A stretch of 64,000 nucleotides of DNA from an uncultured Gammaproteobacteria bacterium (lineage in GTDB: Bacteria; Patescibacteriota; Patescibacteriia; Magasanikbacterales; GWA2-37-8): contig CAZINT010000002.1 of assembly GCA_964540825.1 (NCBI GenBank), positions 128,993 through 192,992 of the forward strand. The letters run 5' to 3'. The translations under genes and the position numbers were made by a program. Each line of letters starts with the position of its first letter. Position 1 is the stretch's first letter. This document shows positions 2,321 to 36,175 of this stretch, in pieces. The notes under the pieces were generated by a model, which ran no database searches, was not told the origin of the DNA, and saw only the letters and a list, made by a program, of their open reading frames with translations.

Positions 2321-2419
2321 ACCGAGGAAAGGCTAAAAGTACCTCACCATACTACCACACCCTTTAGTGCTTGAAAAGAAGAAAATCGTATGGTAGGATT
2401 GACCTACAAGGAGGCTGTA

Positions 2420-2656
2420 ATGAGCAGCTCAGAACCAAAACCGTCTAGCGGTAAGGCCGCGCGTGAACAGGTCAAGTTTTGCTGCCGCCTGTGTGGCCAT
2501 CACAGCTACACCGAAGTTCGCGCTCCCCGTCCTGTATGCCTCGGCGGACCTCGTAGCGCTTCACCCGAAGTGCTCCATTGCGTCTGCGACGGCTGCAGCG
2601 CAGTCTTCGTTGATCCAAAAAAATTCTCGGGATATATTCGCCCCGACCTTCCATAG
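2420..2656 (+). CDS. Small hypothetical zinc-ribbon protein with CxxC and CxCxxC motifs
   Basis: An AGGAGG sequence at 2408–2413 precedes the ATG at 2420. The product is Cys-rich (CCRLCGHH ... CVCDGC). Its GC is visibly higher than the flanking sequence. A 10-bp perfect inverted-repeat hairpin lies just downstream. Confidence 0.35.
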   Translation: MSSSEPKPSSGKAAREQVKFCCRLCGHHSYTEVRAPRPVCLGGPRSASPEVLHCVCDGCSAVFVDPKKFSGYIRPDLP

Positions 2657-2808: not shown

Positions 2809-2882
2809 CGGGTTGTAGCTCAGTTGGCTAGAGCGCTTGCATGGGGTGCAAGAGGTCGCAGGTTCAAGTCCTGTCAGCCCGA
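2809..2882 (+). tRNA. tRNA-Pro (anticodon GGG)
   Basis: The cloverleaf was folded by hand: acceptor CGGGTTG/CAGCCCG, D-stem GCTC/GAGC, anticodon stem CTTGC/GCAAG with loop ATGGGGT (U33, GGG, G37), T-arm GCAGG-TTCAAGT-CCTGT, discriminator A. It is 74 nt long and no CCA is encoded. Confidence 0.9.
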
Positions 2883-3062
2883 CACACACAAAACTTCAAA
2901 GATTTAAAAAAATGGCCATATTGCCGCTTTTTTAATACCACGTTTACTAGATGGCACCAAACAAAAAACCGGAGCCACACTCTACTTCCAAAATTTTAGA
3001 AATAAAGTGTAGAGACTCCGGTCTCTAGTACATCGCGCTACTGAGCGTATGGTGTAGGTAAA

Positions 3063-3095
3063 AAATGAACGGCACTTCAGAACTTAGTCTGAAGT
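3063..3095 (-). terminator. Hairpin ACTTCAGA–ACTTAG–TCTGAAGT with a T-run on the minus strand a few nt downstream; a weak terminator candidate for the minus-strand lipoprotein gene
   Basis: An 8-bp perfect stem is followed on the minus strand by TTTTTT after an 8-nt spacer. Confidence 0.3.
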
Positions 3096-3114
3096 GGATA
3101 GTTGGCAGGGCGGC

Positions 3115-3564
3115 CTAGCCGAGGGTGAAGTCGACCAGCTGAACACCCTTTGACGGATCGTAGGTGATCGTGGCGGGCTGCGCGAACACCGCGCTCTTCA
3201 CCACATCACCCTCCGCCTGGAGGGTCAGCGACTGTACCACCACTTCCCCCATCTGCGTCAGGCAGGGCGAGTAGTTCAGGATGGTGACATCGCCGATGCC
3301 GCCGAACGCGAAGGTGACGACGCGCTTCACAGGCGTACCACCGCGAGGGGTCTCGGTCACCGTGAGGACAGCGCTGTACACGCTGCCGGCCTTGTAGGTC
3401 GCCGCCGAACCGTCGTGGTTCTTTCCCCGGAACACTACAGACGGGTGCGTATCGGACAGGGGGGTCTGATCCGAGCACAACGCGACGGCGCTGCTCCCGG
3501 GAACTACCTCCAGGCAGCCAGCAAAAAGGAAACCACTCAGAGCCAACAGCATCGACTTCATCAT
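3115..3564 (-). CDS. Secreted lipoprotein of high-GC codon usage, function unknown
   Basis: The track ORF is 3115..3648. The likely true start is the MMKSMLLALSGFLFAGC... at 3564, with GGAG 9 nt upstream. The signal peptide carries the lipobox LFAGC. Third codon positions are strongly G/C, unlike the host locus. Confidence 0.6.
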   Translation of the reverse strand: MMKSMLLALSGFLFAGCLEVVPGSSAVALCSDQTPLSDTHPSVVFRGKNHDGSAATYKAGSVYSAVLTVTETPRGGTPVKRVVTFAFGGIGDVTILNYSPCLTQMGEVVVQSLTLQAEGDVVKSAVFAQPATITYDPSKGVQLVDFTLG

Positions 3565-3601
3565 CTTAGTAACTCCGATCAACACGAGACGGGATTGCCT
3601 C

Positions 3602-3641
3602 GGTACCATGGTTACAGAGTAAGTTCTGTAACCATGGTACC
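3602..3641. promoter_or_regulatory. Perfect 17-bp inverted repeat GGTACCATGGTTACAGA–GTAAGT–TCTGTAACCATGGTACC (nested ACCATGGT palindromes), a candidate operator lying in the divergent lipoprotein intergenic region
   Basis: Read directly from the sequence. It lies about 40 bp upstream of the minus-strand lipoprotein start codon and in the shared 5' region with the plus-strand lipoprotein gene. Confidence 0.5.
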
Positions 3642-3916
3642 CGGCCATTCCACTGTAACTGAAGGTGAATTTACTTTCGATTACGACAAATAGGCATATT
3701 ATAAAATCGGCTTTTTGTCAATATAACAGCTAAAAATAGCCTGACCGTATTTTCAAACTTTGGCACTAAAAAATAAAAATACAAAGCTTCTTCGTTTATT
3801 TTTTTGCTTAAATTAACAACTTTTACTTACTACCCTTGACAACGAGGGCGTTTTAAGGTAGCGTTTTTCCGCGTGGTAAAAGTGCCACGCTGCACACCCC
3901 TTGGAGGTACCTGTCC

Positions 3917-4567
3917 ATGAACCTGTTCACGAGAAGCTCTGGAACCACCGCCTTCGGCCTGATCCTCGGCCTCAGCACCCTCGGGTGCGGCGCGCCGCCC
4001 GTGGCCCCGCAGCCCGTCGACACGATCGTCAACACGCAGCCCGAGGACCTCCCGCCCGCCGACTCGAGCGGCCTGCACCGCGACGGGAACTGCCTCTGGA
4101 CGTGGGGCGACGGCAAGCAGATCTACACCAAGGTGGATGCGACCACCCTCAAGCCCTCGCCGGAAGCGACGGTCTTCGAGGGGTCGGGCGAGACCATCCA
4201 GCTCGCCCACCACTTCTTCCCCGACGGCGCCGTCGGCGGCACGCCCGCCTGGGACTTCAGCCTGCCCGCTGTCAGCCACGTCGAGCGCAAGTTCGGCTCG
4301 ACGCCCGCGACCCTCCTCCCGGCGCAGAACGGCAACCTGAGCTGGGTGGGGATGCAGGTGAACGCGACGCCCGACTTCGAGGGCGTCACCATGGCCTACC
4401 GGCTCTTCACCAGCGCCGGCGCAACCCCGGCCAAGGGCGTGAACGCCACCCCCAAGGAGCTGGAGGCGCCCTACACCGCGTGGTACGTCTTCTGCAAGGA
4501 GGCCATCGAGCCCACGAAGATCGAGGCCCTGAAGACCAAGGCCCCCTACGGCCGCACCCGCCGCTAG
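3917..4567 (+). CDS. Secreted lipoprotein with extreme-GC codon usage, function unknown
   Basis: GGAGG lies 9 nt upstream of the ATG. The N-terminus MNLFTRSSGTTAFGLILGLSTLGCG carries a lipobox. Nearly every third codon position is G/C (ctg, ttc, acg, ggc, ctc ...). Long antisense ORFs on both strands are artefacts of the stop-codon-poor GC-rich sequence. Confidence 0.65.
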   Translation: MNLFTRSSGTTAFGLILGLSTLGCGAPPVAPQPVDTIVNTQPEDLPPADSSGLHRDGNCLWTWGDGKQIYTKVDATTLKPSPEATVFEGSGETIQLAHHFFPDGAVGGTPAWDFSLPAVSHVERKFGSTPATLLPAQNGNLSWVGMQVNATPDFEGVTMAYRLFTSAGATPAKGVNATPKELEAPYTAWYVFCKEAIEPTKIEALKTKAPYGRTRR

Positions 4568-4627
4568 CGGGCGCACTACGACCAAAGTTCCGCTCATAGC
4601 CTCATAAACTAAGAGGTGGCGCGAACT

Positions 4628-4683
4628 GATTCCGCCCCCTCTACCACTACCTATTGTATGTAGCTAGTGGTAGGGGCGGAATC
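4628..4683. other. Long imperfect hairpin GATTCCGCCCCCTCTACCACTA ... TAGTGGTAGGGGCGGAATC, about 19 bp with a 3-nt bulge; a structured element at the right boundary of the GC-rich island
   Basis: The inverted repeat was read from the sequence. No adjacent U-tract on either strand. Confidence 0.4.
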
Positions 4684-4694
4684 TTTAAAAAAAT

Positions 4695-4723
4695 AACCTC
4701 GATTTAATCGAGGTTATTTTTTT
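4695..4723. terminator. Bidirectional rho-independent terminator: A7 – AACCTCGAT–TTA–ATCGAGGTT – T7
   Basis: A perfect 9-bp stem is flanked by an A-run upstream and a T-run downstream. Confidence 0.6.
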
Positions 4724-4768
4724 ACTTGCTAAGTGAAAAACGCTATGTTATTATTTTATTCGCCTACT

Positions 4769-4842
4769 CGGGCTATAGCGCAGTTGGCTAGCGCGCATCG
4801 TTCGGGACGATGAGGTCGTGGGTTCAAGTCCCACTAGCCCGA
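4769..4842 (+). tRNA. tRNA-Pro (anticodon CGG)
   Basis: The hand-folded cloverleaf has acceptor CGGGCTA/TAGCCCG, D-stem GCGC/GCGC, anticodon stem CATCG/CGATG with loop TTCGGGA (U33, CGG, G37) and T-arm GTGGG-TTCAAGT-CCCAC. It is 74 nt long. Confidence 0.9.
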
Positions 4843-4854
4843 CAATAACAAAAA

Positions 4855-5415: not shown

Positions 5416-6621
5416 TTATTGTATTTTTTTAAGCAACTTTTTCCTAAACTTCCATTCATTAATCCGATTAGCCAAAATTACAGTAAGGCCAGCCACAATA
5501 GATTCAGTAGAACCTACAGCCGCAAGGACAAAACCATTATGCATTACCCCCGAAAGCGCAGCGATCATACCCATAATAGGAGCCATACAGGCACCGATCA
5601 AAAGACCTAAGCGTGCCGGGTTGGTAAAGTCCTGACGCAGTGCAATATGATACAAACGTTCGTGATGAACCTCGGTAAGTTTATTTTCCAGCTGCAGCTT
5701 ATGGGCACTGTGTTGATACAAAAATAAAGACTGTATTGCCGTGGTCAGCGACAAAGCAACTGCTGAAAGCCCAAAGACAATACCTGCTAAAGCAACATGG
5801 CCGGTCTCAAGCAGGTGCTCTACTTGAAAGGCCCCATAGGTGGCAGCACCAAACACTGGCACAAGAATGATTGAACGGCGCGCCAGGACCTTCCAACCAA
5901 ATCCCGAACCGCGCAGCGCAGTCATTTCAGCCGCTTCGCCCAACAGATCATCGGCTGAGGCGGCGAAGACTTTACCGATGCCCGAAGCATACTTTTCAAG
6001 TACATGGGCAATCGGACCAACAATAAATAAAATTTTAATGATTGACTGAGCAATTTCCGTGCGTTCGTGCGCGTTATCATTGATAATTCTAAAGACCGAA
6101 TAATCTACTGATAGTGGATACAAAATTTCTGTCAGCTCGGTCATTAATTTTTGTTCTTCAGGTTTTATGCCGACGTTTTCTTCATCGATTAAAACTAAAC
6201 GTTTAAACCGCAAACGGTCACGCAACAGTATTTCAACAGCTTCGTCTAAATTTTCTTTGTGCTCGCGCGCTTTTTGGCGATCAGCTTCAGTGATACGGGG
6301 TAAATGCTTACTTTTCAGCAGTTCTGGCAGCCAAGTAATAATGTAATTTTCTTGGGAATATACACTAATTGTATGAACGGCTTTCAAAATAATTTCCGGA
6401 CTTTTGAGAACTGTGCGCACACCGATAGCTTTGCCGTCAACAAGAATTTGACGAATTTTTTCTTTGTACTCGGGATATTTTTTAAGAATGTACCTCAGTT
6501 CAATAGGTAAATATTCTTCAAATTCCAATTCTTTTTCAAGTGATATAACATCAATGCGGTACGTTCCGATCAGCGATTCTTCTGGCGGTTTTTTCATTAT
6601 ACGTGATAAAAATTTGGGCAT
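5416..6621 (-). CDS. Integral membrane protein with an N-terminal soluble domain of about 200 aa and C-terminal TM helices; function unknown
   Basis: 401 aa. The C-terminal half is hydrophobic with Gly/Ala-rich helices (GPIAHVLEKYASGIGKVF..., AAVGSTESIVAGLTVILA). No confident family motif was recognised. Confidence 0.55.
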   Translation of the reverse strand: MPKFLSRIMKKPPEESLIGTYRIDVISLEKELEFEEYLPIELRYILKKYPEYKEKIRQILVDGKAIGVRTVLKSPEIILKAVHTISVYSQENYIITWLPELLKSKHLPRITEADRQKAREHKENLDEAVEILLRDRLRFKRLVLIDEENVGIKPEEQKLMTELTEILYPLSVDYSVFRIINDNAHERTEIAQSIIKILFIVGPIAHVLEKYASGIGKVFAASADDLLGEAAEMTALRGSGFGWKVLARRSIILVPVFGAATYGAFQVEHLLETGHVALAGIVFGLSAVALSLTTAIQSLFLYQHSAHKLQLENKLTEVHHERLYHIALRQDFTNPARLGLLIGACMAPIMGMIAALSGVMHNGFVLAAVGSTESIVAGLTVILANRINEWKFRKKLLKKIQ

Positions 6622-35611: not shown

Positions 35612-36175
35612 CTAGCGCGAGAGCTTGTACCCGAGATGAGGAAGGGAGCGGGTGGTCGCCGCGACCGAGAAGGTCTCGGTGGTCTCGCCGCCGAGGACGC
35701 GACCCAGCCAGTCTTCGAGCGGTATGCTGACGACCTCGATCTCGACCTCCTCGCTGTCGGGGGTGGGCTCACCCTCGAGCACGCACTCAAGTGCGAGGTA
35801 GAGCTGGACCCGTCCGCTCGAGTGTCGCGGGATGATGTCGACGTGTCCGAGGTCGATGAGCTGCCCCGCACGGTGGCCGGTCTCCTCCCTGACCTCGCGC
35901 CGCGCCGCCTCGTTGAGCGACTCTCCATCGTTGCAGTAGCCGCCCACGAGGCCGATCTGGATGCGGTCTGCACCCTGCTTGTACTCGCGTACGGCGAGCA
36001 CATTTAGATCGACAGTCACCGGCAGGACAACTACCGAATCCTGCAAGGTGTAGAGATAGAAATCATGCACCTTTCCGAACGGGTCCTCGAAGTCCTGGTG
36101 CACGATCTGCTTGCCATAGTGGCGCGGGCCTATGGGAACTGCTTCACCTACTTTTTTCCACCGTCGTACTGCCAT
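35612..36175 (-). CDS. NUDIX hydrolase with high-GC codon usage
   Basis: The Nudix box reads GGYCNDGESLNEAARREVREETG. The length is 187 aa. The GC content and GC3 are markedly higher than in neighbouring genes. Long antisense ORFs here are GC artefacts. Confidence 0.8.
   Translation of the reverse strand: MAVRRWKKVGEAVPIGPRHYGKQIVHQDFEDPFGKVHDFYLYTLQDSVVVLPVTVDLNVLAVREYKQGADRIQIGLVGGYCNDGESLNEAARREVREETGHRAGQLIDLGHVDIIPRHSSGRVQLYLALECVLEGEPTPDSEEVEIEVVSIPLEDWLGRVLGGETTETFSVAATTRSLPHLGYKLSR

What the first reader, a model, noticed from the sequence alone, without database searches (positions are those of the whole stretch)
3602..3641. Perfect 17-bp inverted repeat with nested ACCATGGT palindromes between the divergent lipoprotein genes
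GGTACCATGGTTACAGA–GTAAGT–TCTGTAACCATGGTACC is a 40-bp perfect palindrome, which is unlikely by chance. It lies about 40 bp upstream of the minus-strand lipoprotein start and inside the shared upstream region of the plus-strand lipoprotein. Its geometry, two 17-bp arms each containing a palindromic core, fits an operator for a dimeric or tetrameric regulator controlling both divergent genes. Alternatively it could form a strong RNA hairpin in the minus-strand transcript leader. No adjacent regulator gene is present, so the regulator would act in trans or the element is a relic of the donor genome.
Basis: seen in the sequence. Interest (0 to 1): 0.5.

Follow-up and report, generated by a model that had tools for sequence, protein, structure and literature searches.

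The report
Conserved leader hairpin before lipoprotein gene
A perfect 40-base palindrome lies in the probable untranslated leader of an orphan lipoprotein gene in a candidate-phyla-radiation bacterium; it most likely forms an RNA hairpin that affects that one mRNA, which makes it a real but fairly ordinary kind of element.

Summary
Window 3602-3618 and 3625-3641 form a perfect 17+6+17 palindrome, the longest inverted repeat without a T-run in the 64 kb, and far beyond chance.

It is single-copy. It lies 37 nt upstream of the real start (3564) of a minus-strand orphan lipoprotein gene. It is also downstream of that gene's probable promoter (TTGACA 3721-3716), so it probably sits in the 5' leader.

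A sister genome (about 85% identical here) keeps the palindrome perfect through one compensatory pair of changes (C>T with G>A). The flank just upstream diverges at the neutral rate.

The whole minus-strand leader folds into one long irregular hairpin (-52 kcal/mol, z -5.3). The palindrome is its apex, and the Shine-Dalgarno and AUG region lies in its base.

Best reading (about 0.5): a cis-acting RNA stem-loop in this gene's leader that affects stability, processing or translation. Its perfection is probably helped by replication template switching.

An operator shared by both divergent genes is not favoured: it would sit at about +65 of one promoter and about 200 bp from the other, is far longer than a dimer needs, and has no recognisable regulator nearby. 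The REP-like, terminator, attC and known-RNA-family readings all fail.

Only two alleles exist, so the covariation evidence is thin. Interest is low to moderate.

The parts
3602..3641 (-). Perfect 17+6+17 palindrome, read as the apical stem-loop of the gene A leader RNA. The sequence is symmetric, so the DNA is identical on both strands apart from the loop.
   Evidence: RNA hairpin -36.2 kcal/mol, z -8.0. Conserved with one compensatory pair in L005/L004.
3592..3651 (-). Imperfect extension of the inverted repeat: 27-nt arms, 85% complementary, with GCC/GGC pairing beyond a 1-2 nt bulge.
3557..3690 (-). Predicted long irregular leader hairpin. The 5' end of the inferred transcript pairs with the SD/AUG region, and the palindrome forms the apex. 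This is predicted, not shown.
   Evidence: Substitutions break fewer pairs than random on the minus strand only.
3693..3721 (-). Inferred gene A promoter: TTGACA (3721-3716), 17 nt, TATGCC (3698-3693). It has the same architecture as the gene B promoter. The -10 is weak and non-canonical.
   Evidence: Sequence. Conserved block GGCTTTTTGTCAATA. Not called by the consensus scanner. Inference.
3573..3576 (-). Shine-Dalgarno GGAG of gene A, 8 nt before ATG 3564. Predicted to be mostly paired with the conserved UUCACC segment of the leader.
3115..3564 (-). Gene A: 149-aa orphan lipoprotein (MMKSMLLALSGFLFAGC...), 65% GC, under purifying selection.
   Evidence: (dN/dS 0.32). No Pfam or NCBIfam family.
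3073..3096 (-). Intrinsic terminator of gene A (stem plus T-run). It makes gene A a stand-alone transcription unit.
3836..3868 (+). Context: promoter of divergent gene B (TTGACA-17-TAGCGT), followed by a short leader hairpin with covariation across three cassettes.
3917..4567 (+). Context: gene B, a DUF3455 lipoprotein, 69% GC.

Best explanation
The palindrome is a cis-acting element of a single gene. It is transcribed from the minus strand as part of the roughly 120-nt 5' leader of the orphan lipoprotein gene A (3564-3115). There it forms a very stable 17-bp stem-loop, which reaches 20 bp with the flanking GCC/GGC.

This stem nucleates a longer irregular hairpin. The hairpin joins the 5' end of the mRNA to the Shine-Dalgarno and start-codon region.

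Its likely effect is post-transcriptional. It could protect the leader against 5'-end-dependent decay, offer a double-stranded RNase III-type processing site, or limit ribosome access. These effects may combine.

The perfect Watson-Crick symmetry is probably kept by two things together: selection for pairing, and replication template switching, which copies one arm onto the other.

Shown: the palindrome itself, its single-copy status, its conservation with a mirrored substitution, its position relative to the SD and ATG, and its predicted thermodynamics.

Inferred: the promoter and transcription start, that the element is transcribed, and every functional consequence.
For: Position and transcription unit:
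- It lies between the best promoter candidate (TTGACA 3721-3716, in a block invariant between the two species) and the SD/ATG of gene A.
- Gene A has its own terminator at 3096-3073.

Folding:
- The stem alone folds at -36.2 kcal/mol (z -8.0). The whole leader folds at -52.4 (z -5.3, 0/200 shuffles as good).

Conservation:
- In the sister genome the palindrome is still 17/17 perfect. The one arm difference is compensatory (C-G to U-A), and a second compensatory pair (A-U to G-C) lies in the extension.
- Arm divergence is 2/34, against 20% in the adjoining 3642-3700 and 21% at synonymous sites.
- P(all 17 pairs remain complementary) is 0.02 at the intergenic mean rate and about 5e-4 at the neutral rate. 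P(2 or fewer arm changes) is about 0.015-0.02 at the neutral rate.

Strand specificity:
- Structures predicted from one species alone lose fewer pairs in the other species than randomly placed substitutions would. This holds on the minus strand (3-4 broken vs about 7, P 0.013-0.08) but not on the plus strand (6 vs 6-7.5, P 0.24-0.61).
- The consensus structure uses several G-U pairs, which exist only in minus-strand RNA.
- SD bases are predicted to be mostly paired in both species.

Supporting context:
- Neighbouring cassettes in the same island also carry leader hairpins with covariation.
- 5' stem-loops and RNase III-cleaved leaders are established controls of bacterial mRNA decay (review PMC3997798).
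- Template switching can create perfect stems and produce compensatory changes in one event (PMC8794818, PMC7202029).
Against: - There are only two distinct alleles. The formal shuffle control on covariation is uninformative (135/500), and one mirrored substitution can be a single template-switch event rather than selection.
- The promoter is inferred. Its -10 (TATGCC/TATACC) lacks the conserved final T and was not called by the scanner. There are no transcript data.
- Under the inferred start, the perfect stem begins about 45 nt into the leader, not at the 5' end where classical stabilisers act.
- RNA stems under selection usually tolerate G-U pairs and bulges. A stem that is 17/17 Watson-Crick in both species points at least partly to a DNA-level process.
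- In silico removal of the palindrome changes SD accessibility in one species but not the other.
- The extended structure was predicted from the same sequences on which it was scored.
Confidence: 0.5

Rival explanations
1. DNA operator. A trans-encoded dimeric or tetrameric regulator binds the dyad and blocks elongation or initiation of gene A, and perhaps also gene B. It could have a dual DNA/RNA role like CIRCE.
For: - Perfect dyad symmetry with nested ACCATGGT cores.
- The arms are conserved above the neutral rate.
- Perfect Watson-Crick symmetry fits a DNA-level constraint better than an RNA-only one.
- A small zinc-ribbon ORF of unknown function (2390-2656) occurs only in the two genomes that carry the island. 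It is an untested candidate binder.
Against: - The centre lies about +65 from the inferred gene A start and about 200 bp upstream of gene B's -35. These are atypical positions for repression and poor ones for joint control.
- 17-bp perfect arms far exceed the 4-8 bp half-sites a dimer reads.
- The two ACCATGGT cores are 26 bp apart, or 2.5 helical turns, so they face opposite sides of the helix.
- The mirrored substitution is not expected for independent half-sites.
- No Pfam-recognisable DNA-binding protein lies within +/-10 kb. The zinc-ribbon ORF matches no family.
- No second site exists in 64 kb even with 3 mismatches.
Confidence: 0.2
2. Neutral by-product. A short inverted repeat was extended to a perfect palindrome by a replication template switch and is kept symmetric by the same mutational process, with no function.
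For: - Template switching creates perfect stems and mirrored changes in one event (PMC8794818, PMC7202029).
- The stem is perfectly Watson-Crick in both alleles.
- A phage gene shares 36/39 nt with the left flank, left arm, loop and inner 7 nt of the right arm, then diverges exactly where the window continues with the reverse complement of its own left arm. This is the footprint expected of such an extension, if the similarity is real.
Against: - The arms carry 2 changes where about 7 are expected at the neutral rate (P about 0.015-0.02), while the adjacent 59 nt diverge at about 20%.
- Homogenisation alone explains the symmetry but not the low divergence.
- The imperfect flanking extension and its bulges are also retained with pair-preserving changes.
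- There is no loop inversion between the alleles.
Confidence: 0.17
3. DNA hairpin used by a mobile or recombination system: a REP/BIME-like repeat, an IS200/IS605-type end, an integron attC-like site, or the junction of the cargo inserted between the two tRNA-Pro genes.
For: - The palindrome sits in a variable cargo slot between tRNA-Pro(GGG) and tRNA-Pro(CGG). That slot holds different genes in related genomes.
- The coding regions around it are compositionally foreign.
Against: - Single copy in 64 kb and in the sister genome.
- No integrase, transposase or RAYT within +/-10 kb.
- It lies at the 5' end of a gene, between promoter and SD, not at a cassette 3' end or an island boundary.
- It is perfect, without the extrahelical bases of attC.
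- No similarity to plasmids or phages in annotated collections.
Confidence: 0.05
4. Transcription terminator or insulator separating the two divergent units.
For: A strong hairpin forms on both strands.
Against: - No U/T tract follows it on either strand, and the terminator scan did not call it.
- The two promoters point away from each other, so nothing needs insulating.
- It lies upstream of the gene it would terminate.
Confidence: 0.03

Closest known systems
5'-leader stem-loops that stabilise bacterial mRNAs (E. coli ompA and papA; B. subtilis aprE-type leaders)
   Same: A stable hairpin in the untranslated leader of a highly structured mRNA for an envelope protein. It is cis-acting on one gene and needs no dedicated protein.
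   Different: The classical stabilisers sit within a few nucleotides of the 5' end and have 5-10 bp stems. Here the perfect stem is 17 bp and begins about 45 nt into the inferred leader. Only the predicted, unverified outer helix reaches the 5' end. No half-life data exist.
RNase III-processed leader hairpins (rncO of rnc, the pnp leader, the lambda N leader, T7 R1.1)
   Same: About two helical turns of nearly uninterrupted double-stranded RNA in a 5' leader, upstream of the ribosome-binding site.
   Different: There is no sequence relation and cleavage is untested. Whether this organism encodes RNase III was not checked.
CIRCE (TTAGCACTC-N9-GAGTGCTAA), the HrcA operator of groESL/dnaK
   Same: A perfect inverted repeat placed between promoter and start codon. 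CIRCE acts both as a DNA operator and as an RNA hairpin affecting stability, and it shows the two readings need not exclude each other.
   Different: The sequence is unrelated. Arms and spacer are 17/6 here versus 9/9. CIRCE recurs in a regulon alongside hrcA, whereas this element is single-copy with no known binder.
REP/BIME extragenic palindromes
   Same: An intergenic palindrome able to form a hairpin in RNA.
   Different: REPs are multi-copy and usually lie 3' of genes. This element is unique in 64 kb and in the sister genome, and lies 5' of its gene.

Membership tests
Intrinsic (Rho-independent) terminator | G+C-rich stem-loop immediately followed by a U/T tract | tested here: not met
   No T-run follows on either strand, and the terminator scan does not call it.
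REP/BIME-like repeat | Many copies dispersed in intergenic regions of the genome | tested here: not met
   Only the two arms match in 64 kb at up to 3 mismatches. The sister genome gives one locus in the genome-contig scan. The window's own complete genome could not be scanned.
Transcription-factor operator | Dyad symmetry | tested here: met
   17/17 perfect arms.
Transcription-factor operator | Overlaps or adjoins the -35/-10/start of the controlled promoter(s) | tested here: inconclusive
   The centre is about +65 from the inferred gene A start and about 200 bp from gene B's -35. Both promoters are inferred from sequence only.
Transcription-factor operator | Cognate DNA-binding protein encoded nearby, or binding demonstrated | tested here: not met
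   No Pfam DNA-binding domain within +/-10 kb of the syntenic locus. The zinc-ribbon ORF 2390-2656 matches no family. Binding itself cannot be tested with these tools.
5'-terminal mRNA-stabilising stem-loop | Transcribed, and located at the extreme 5' end of the mRNA | tested here: inconclusive
   It is downstream of the best promoter candidate. The perfect stem starts about 45 nt in, while the predicted outer helix starts within a few nt of the inferred start. There are no transcript data.
5'-terminal mRNA-stabilising stem-loop | Base pairing maintained in evolution | tested here: met
   Two compensatory and four one-sided pair-preserving changes, with 0 of 48 consensus pairs broken. With only two sequences the shuffle control is uninformative (135/500).
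RNase III leader processing site | About 20 bp of nearly uninterrupted double-stranded RNA | tested here: met
   A 17-bp perfect stem plus 3 bp beyond a 1-2 nt bulge.
RNase III leader processing site | Cleavage by RNase III | not testable with these tools
   Needs an in vitro cleavage assay or 5'-monophosphate end mapping.
CIRCE/HrcA | Consensus TTAGCACTC-N9-GAGTGCTAA | tested here: not met
   The sequence read bears no resemblance. The consensus is quoted from my own knowledge.
Integron attC / IS200-IS605 hairpin ends | Imperfect hairpin with extrahelical bases at a cassette 3' end or element end, with an integrase or TnpA nearby | tested here: not met
   It is a perfect stem 5' of its gene. 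No recombinase appears among the neighbours.
Any Rfam family | Score at or above the family's gathering threshold | tested here: not met
   Only the two tRNAs pass in the whole window. In 3450-4000 the best match is 21 bits against a 74-bit threshold, a generic hairpin match.

The most novel reading that the evidence does not exclude
The palindrome is a dedicated switch, a dual DNA/RNA element in the manner of CIRCE, bound by the co-occurring zinc-ribbon protein or cut by RNase III. Through it a candidate-phyla-radiation bacterium would control a compositionally foreign, possibly host-derived, surface lipoprotein. That would be a first cis-regulatory element described for this uncultured lineage.
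Probability: 0.07. Interest if true: 0.6.

Novelty: new member of a known kind. Interest (0 to 1): 0.27.

Why it matters
Taken alone, a leader hairpin is a familiar device. The value here lies in three things.

First, it is a clean, testable cis-element in a candidate-phyla-radiation bacterium. Almost nothing is known about gene regulation in that group.

Second, it belongs to a gene set with 65-70% GC coding regions embedded in AT-rich native-looking promoters, leaders and terminators. That set sits in a variable slot between two tRNA-Pro genes. How foreign genes are fitted with local expression signals is an open question, and this context is more interesting than the palindrome.

Third, it is a compact natural example of how a perfect stem stays perfect: one mirrored substitution across about 0.2 neutral substitutions per site. 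This bears on the debate between template switching and selection.

Tried and rejected
- **Orphan check on gene A.** Protein homology found only the protein itself in 5.8 billion clusters. A full HMMER scan of 1.84 billion representatives added one weak repeat-protein hit of no known family.
- **Structure of protein A.** All-beta with mean pLDDT 59, too poor for a fold search. I did not pursue it.
- **More alleles.** The metagenome scan with the gene A alignment found no relatives. The scan with the inner-arm pattern gave 0 hits. The Logan contigs are 100% identical to one or other of the two known alleles.
- **Genome-contig scan with the outer-arm pattern.** Apart from the sister genome it returned only GGTACCATGGTACC tandem repeats in a Nitrososphaera MAG and unrelated single sites.
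- **Plasmid and phage collections.** No similarity to the island.
- **Alternative promoter right in front of the hairpin** (TCGAAA-17-TACAGT, 3680-3652). Rejected because its -10 is destroyed in the sister genome (TGCAGC).
- **Upstream ATG 3648 as the true start**, as in the public gene call. Rejected because it has no SD and would put a 28-residue extension before a canonical lipoprotein signal peptide. dN/dS of the extension is uninformative.
- **Restriction-site avoidance.** GGTACC and CCATGG are not depleted in the window.
- **SOS box.** The inner arms read ACAG-N8-CTGT, the reverse order of the E. coli CTGT-N8-ACAG box (consensus from my own knowledge). I did not pursue this.
- **Shuffle control of the count of structure pairs.** It has no power with two sequences.

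Full report
**Observation**

The sequence at 3602-3641 reads GGTACCATGGTTACAGA / GTAAGT / TCTGTAACCATGGTACC, a perfect 17+6+17 palindrome. Each arm contains ACCATGGT and GGTACC.

With up to three mismatches, the half-site occurs nowhere else in the 64 kb. Shuffles give 0.07 matches. The repeat finder ranks it first of 17 inverted repeats and extends it to imperfect 27-nt arms at 3592-3651.

Thirty Markov-simulated windows never produced a perfect arm longer than 13. The expected number of such repeats in 64 kb is about 1e-4 or less. The only comparable perfect inverted repeat, at 4686-4724, is a classical bidirectional terminator flanked by A and T runs.

Three independent Logan assemblies reproduce 2815-4798 exactly. 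The element and the sharp GC boundaries around it are therefore not assembly artefacts.

**Context**

The window is about 42% GC. Two coding regions of 65-70% GC sit between tRNA-Pro(GGG) at 2809-2883 and tRNA-Pro(CGG) at 4769-4843.

Gene A (minus strand) encodes a 149-aa protein with a canonical lipoprotein signal peptide (MMKSMLLALSGFLFAGC).
- Its start is ATG 3564, preceded by GGAG at 3576-3573.
- It has its own terminator at 3096-3073.
- It is under purifying selection (dN/dS 0.32, dS 0.25 against the sister allele).
- It is an orphan: only itself in 5.8 billion clusters, and one weak repeat-protein hit in a full HMMER scan.
- Public gene calls start it at ATG 3648. That would place the palindrome in codons 3-16, but this ATG lacks an SD and would add 28 residues before the signal peptide.

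Gene B (3917-4567, plus strand) is a DUF3455 lipoprotein.

The organism is a candidate-phyla-radiation (Patescibacteria) bacterium. The neighbouring 401-aa membrane protein has hundreds of homologues named Uhrbacteria, Magasanikbacteria or Patescibacteria. The sister MAG, however, is titled 'Gammaproteobacteria'.

**Comparative evidence**

A syntenic locus is L005 (the same contig as L010, GCA_964510495.1), which a Logan contig (L004) reproduces. It shares PilT, the zinc-ribbon ORF, both tRNAs, gene A, gene B, an extra gene B paralogue and an extra 176-aa ORF. It is about 85% identical across the island.

There the palindrome reads GGTACCATGGTTATAGA / GCAAGT / TCTATAACCATGGTACC. It is still 17/17 perfect. 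It has one C>T change mirrored by G>A in the other arm, plus one loop change.

Identity by segment:

| Segment | Identity |
|---|---|
| Gene A coding region | 0.89 |
| SD to palindrome | 0.88 |
| Palindrome | 0.925 |
| 3642-3700 | 0.80 |
| Promoter block | 0.88 |

At the neutral rate (synonymous p-distance 0.21, flank 0.20) about 7 arm substitutions are expected and 2 are seen (P about 0.015-0.02). The chance that all 17 pairs remain complementary is about 5e-4, or 0.02 at the milder intergenic mean. So the arms are constrained, or homogenised, beyond neutrality.

More distant relatives keep the two tRNA-Pro genes but carry different cargo between them and have no palindrome. These relatives show 79-82% identity in the membrane protein (L044, L047, L049). 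The element therefore belongs to the gene A cassette in a variable slot.

No further alleles exist in the JGI metagenomes or among the GTDB species representatives.

**Position relative to promoters**

On the minus strand the invariant block contains TTGACA (3721-3716). Seventeen nucleotides later comes TATGCC, which is TATACC in the sister genome.

Gene B and its paralogue use TTGACA-17-TAGCGT, with the same TTTTA segment ahead of the -10. I therefore infer a gene A start near 3686-3692. That places the palindrome at about +46 to +85 of a roughly 120-nt leader.

The consensus scanner did not call this promoter because the -10 lacks the final T, so this step is inference. An alternative promoter abutting the hairpin is destroyed in the sister genome and was rejected.

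The palindrome is about 195 nt from gene B's -35.

**Folding**

- As RNA the stem alone folds at -36.2 kcal/mol on the minus strand and -34.4 on the plus strand (z about -8). As DNA it folds at about -21.
- The minus-strand leader (3700 to 3555) folds at -52.4 kcal/mol, z -5.3.
- The two-species consensus is one long irregular hairpin from about 3690 to about 3557. The palindrome is its apex. Its base pairs the 5' end of the inferred transcript with the start-codon region, and the conserved UUCACC segment with the SD.
- Of 48 consensus pairs, none is broken. Two changed on both sides and four on one side, all preserving pairing. Several are G-U pairs, which are possible only in minus-strand RNA.
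- That structure was predicted from the same two sequences, so I also predicted structures from each species alone and scored the other species' substitutions. On the minus strand, 3-4 pairs break versus about 7 for randomly placed substitutions (P 0.013-0.08). On the plus strand, 6 break versus 6-7.5 (P 0.24-0.61).
- The formal shuffle control has no power with two sequences (135/500).
- SD bases are predicted to be mostly paired in both species. Deleting the palindrome in silico raises SD accessibility only in the window allele.

**What it is not**

- Not a terminator: no T tract follows it.
- Not a REP-like repeat: single copy.
- Not a known RNA family.
- Not an attC or IS200-type site: it is perfect, lies 5' of its gene, and has no recombinase within +/-10 kb.
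- Not shared with plasmids or phages in the annotated collections.
- Not CIRCE or an SOS box by sequence (consensus sequences quoted from my own knowledge).

**Explanation**

I favour a cis-acting RNA stem-loop in the gene A leader, at about 0.5. It would act on mRNA stability or processing and possibly on ribosome access.

Established precedents include 5' stem-loops that protect mRNAs and RNase III-cleaved leaders such as rnc and pnp (review PMC3997798).

The neighbouring gene B cassettes also have leader hairpins with covariation. Structured untranslated regions therefore seem to be the local design.

The stem is perfectly Watson-Crick in both alleles, which is more than RNA-level selection needs. 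Replication template switching can create perfect stems and produce 'compensatory' pairs in one event (PMC8794818, PMC7202029). It probably contributes, which also weakens the covariation argument.

**Rivals**

- An operator (0.2) remains possible, most plausibly as a roadblock on gene A alone or as a dual DNA/RNA element like CIRCE.
- A neutral template-switch product (0.17) explains the symmetry but not the low divergence.
- Mobile-element and insulator readings are unlikely.

**Unexplained side observation**

The viral scan for the half-site hit one family of roughly 86-kb phage contigs. There, TTGCCT-GGTACCATGGTTACAGA-T-GTAAGT-G-CTGTAAC lies inside a 1759-aa tail-fibre-like ORF. This matches window 3595-3632 at 36 of 39 nt with two one-base gaps.

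The similarity ends exactly where the window continues with the reverse complement of its own left arm. That is the footprint expected if a 7-bp inverted repeat had been extended by a template switch.

My rough estimate of a chance match over the whole collection lies between about 1e-5 and 2e-3. There is no other similarity between phage and island. The phage resembles gut crAss-like phages only weakly. It may be coincidence.

**Verdict**

This is a real, conserved, single-copy palindrome, best read as a leader RNA hairpin of one orphan lipoprotein gene. It is a new member of a known kind, and its interest is low to moderate. Its context is the more notable feature: foreign-composition genes under native regulatory cassettes, in a tRNA-flanked variable slot of a CPR genome.

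Noticed in passing
window 5416-6621 (-); L010/L005 record title: The organism is a candidate-phyla-radiation (Patescibacteria) bacterium. The 401-aa membrane protein has more than 500 homologues, and the named ones are Uhrbacteria, Magasanikbacteria or Patescibacteria. The sister MAG's public title, 'uncultured Gammaproteobacteria bacterium', is probably a misclassification.
   Followed up: partly
window 2809-4843; L005 7089-10951; L047 10425-11394; L049 9239-10578: The slot between tRNA-Pro(GGG) and tRNA-Pro(CGG) is a variable cargo hotspot.
- The window holds genes A and B.
- The sister genome adds a 176-aa ORF and a gene B paralogue.
- Relatives at 82% identity hold a 167-aa protein with a winged-helix-looking motif.
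- A relative at 79% identity holds a fatty-acid desaturase.
No integrase is present.
   Followed up: partly
window 3115-3564 and 3917-4567 versus 3642-3916, 4568-4768: The coding regions are 65-70% GC with boundaries at the start and stop codons. Their promoters, leaders and terminators are 30-45% GC like the host. The arrangement is shared by two genomes and by a 39%-identical tandem paralogue, so the composition contrast is old and maintained.
   Followed up: partly
window 4635-4679 and 4686-4724; L005 9753-9800, 10737-10784, 10798-10828: Each DUF3455 cassette ends with a long hairpin (CCGCCCCCTCTACCACT...AGTGGTAGGGGCGG, no T-run), followed by a separate bidirectional terminator (AAAATAACCTCGA...TCGAGGTTATTTT). 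The first hairpin occurs only at these cassette ends.
   Followed up: partly
window 2390-2656 (+); L005 6743-7003: An 88-aa zinc-ribbon ORF (CxxC...CxxC, 60% GC, 63% identical between the two genomes) is present only in the genomes that carry the island. It is absent in L047, where PilT abuts the tRNA. It matches no family. It is an untested candidate nucleic-acid binder.
   Followed up: partly
L015-L042 (IMG/VR sample 3300045988), e.g. L016 2997-3034; window 3595-3632: A family of roughly 86-kb phages shares 36/39 nt with the left flank, left arm, loop and inner right arm of the palindrome, inside a 1759-aa tail-fibre-like ORF. The similarity stops where the window's right arm becomes the mirror of its left arm. 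This is either a template-switch footprint or coincidence.
   Followed up: partly
window 35612-36175 (-): This is another high-GC (about 60%) gene in the AT-richer genome. It is a 187-aa ORF containing a Nudix-box-like motif (REVREETG, recognised by eye only), followed by a GC-rich terminator-like inverted repeat at 35515-35553.
   Followed up: no
window 3858-3916; L005 8979-9037 and 9941-10003: The gene B and gene B' leaders carry a short hairpin immediately after the TAGCGT -10 element, with two pairs changed on both sides among three cassettes. It looks like a 5'-terminal stem-loop.
   Followed up: partly
L007, L011, L012, L014 (Nitrososphaera MAG DATEUD01): Tandem GGTACCATGGTACC repeats occur at several loci of one archaeal MAG. 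They are unrelated to the finding.
   Followed up: no
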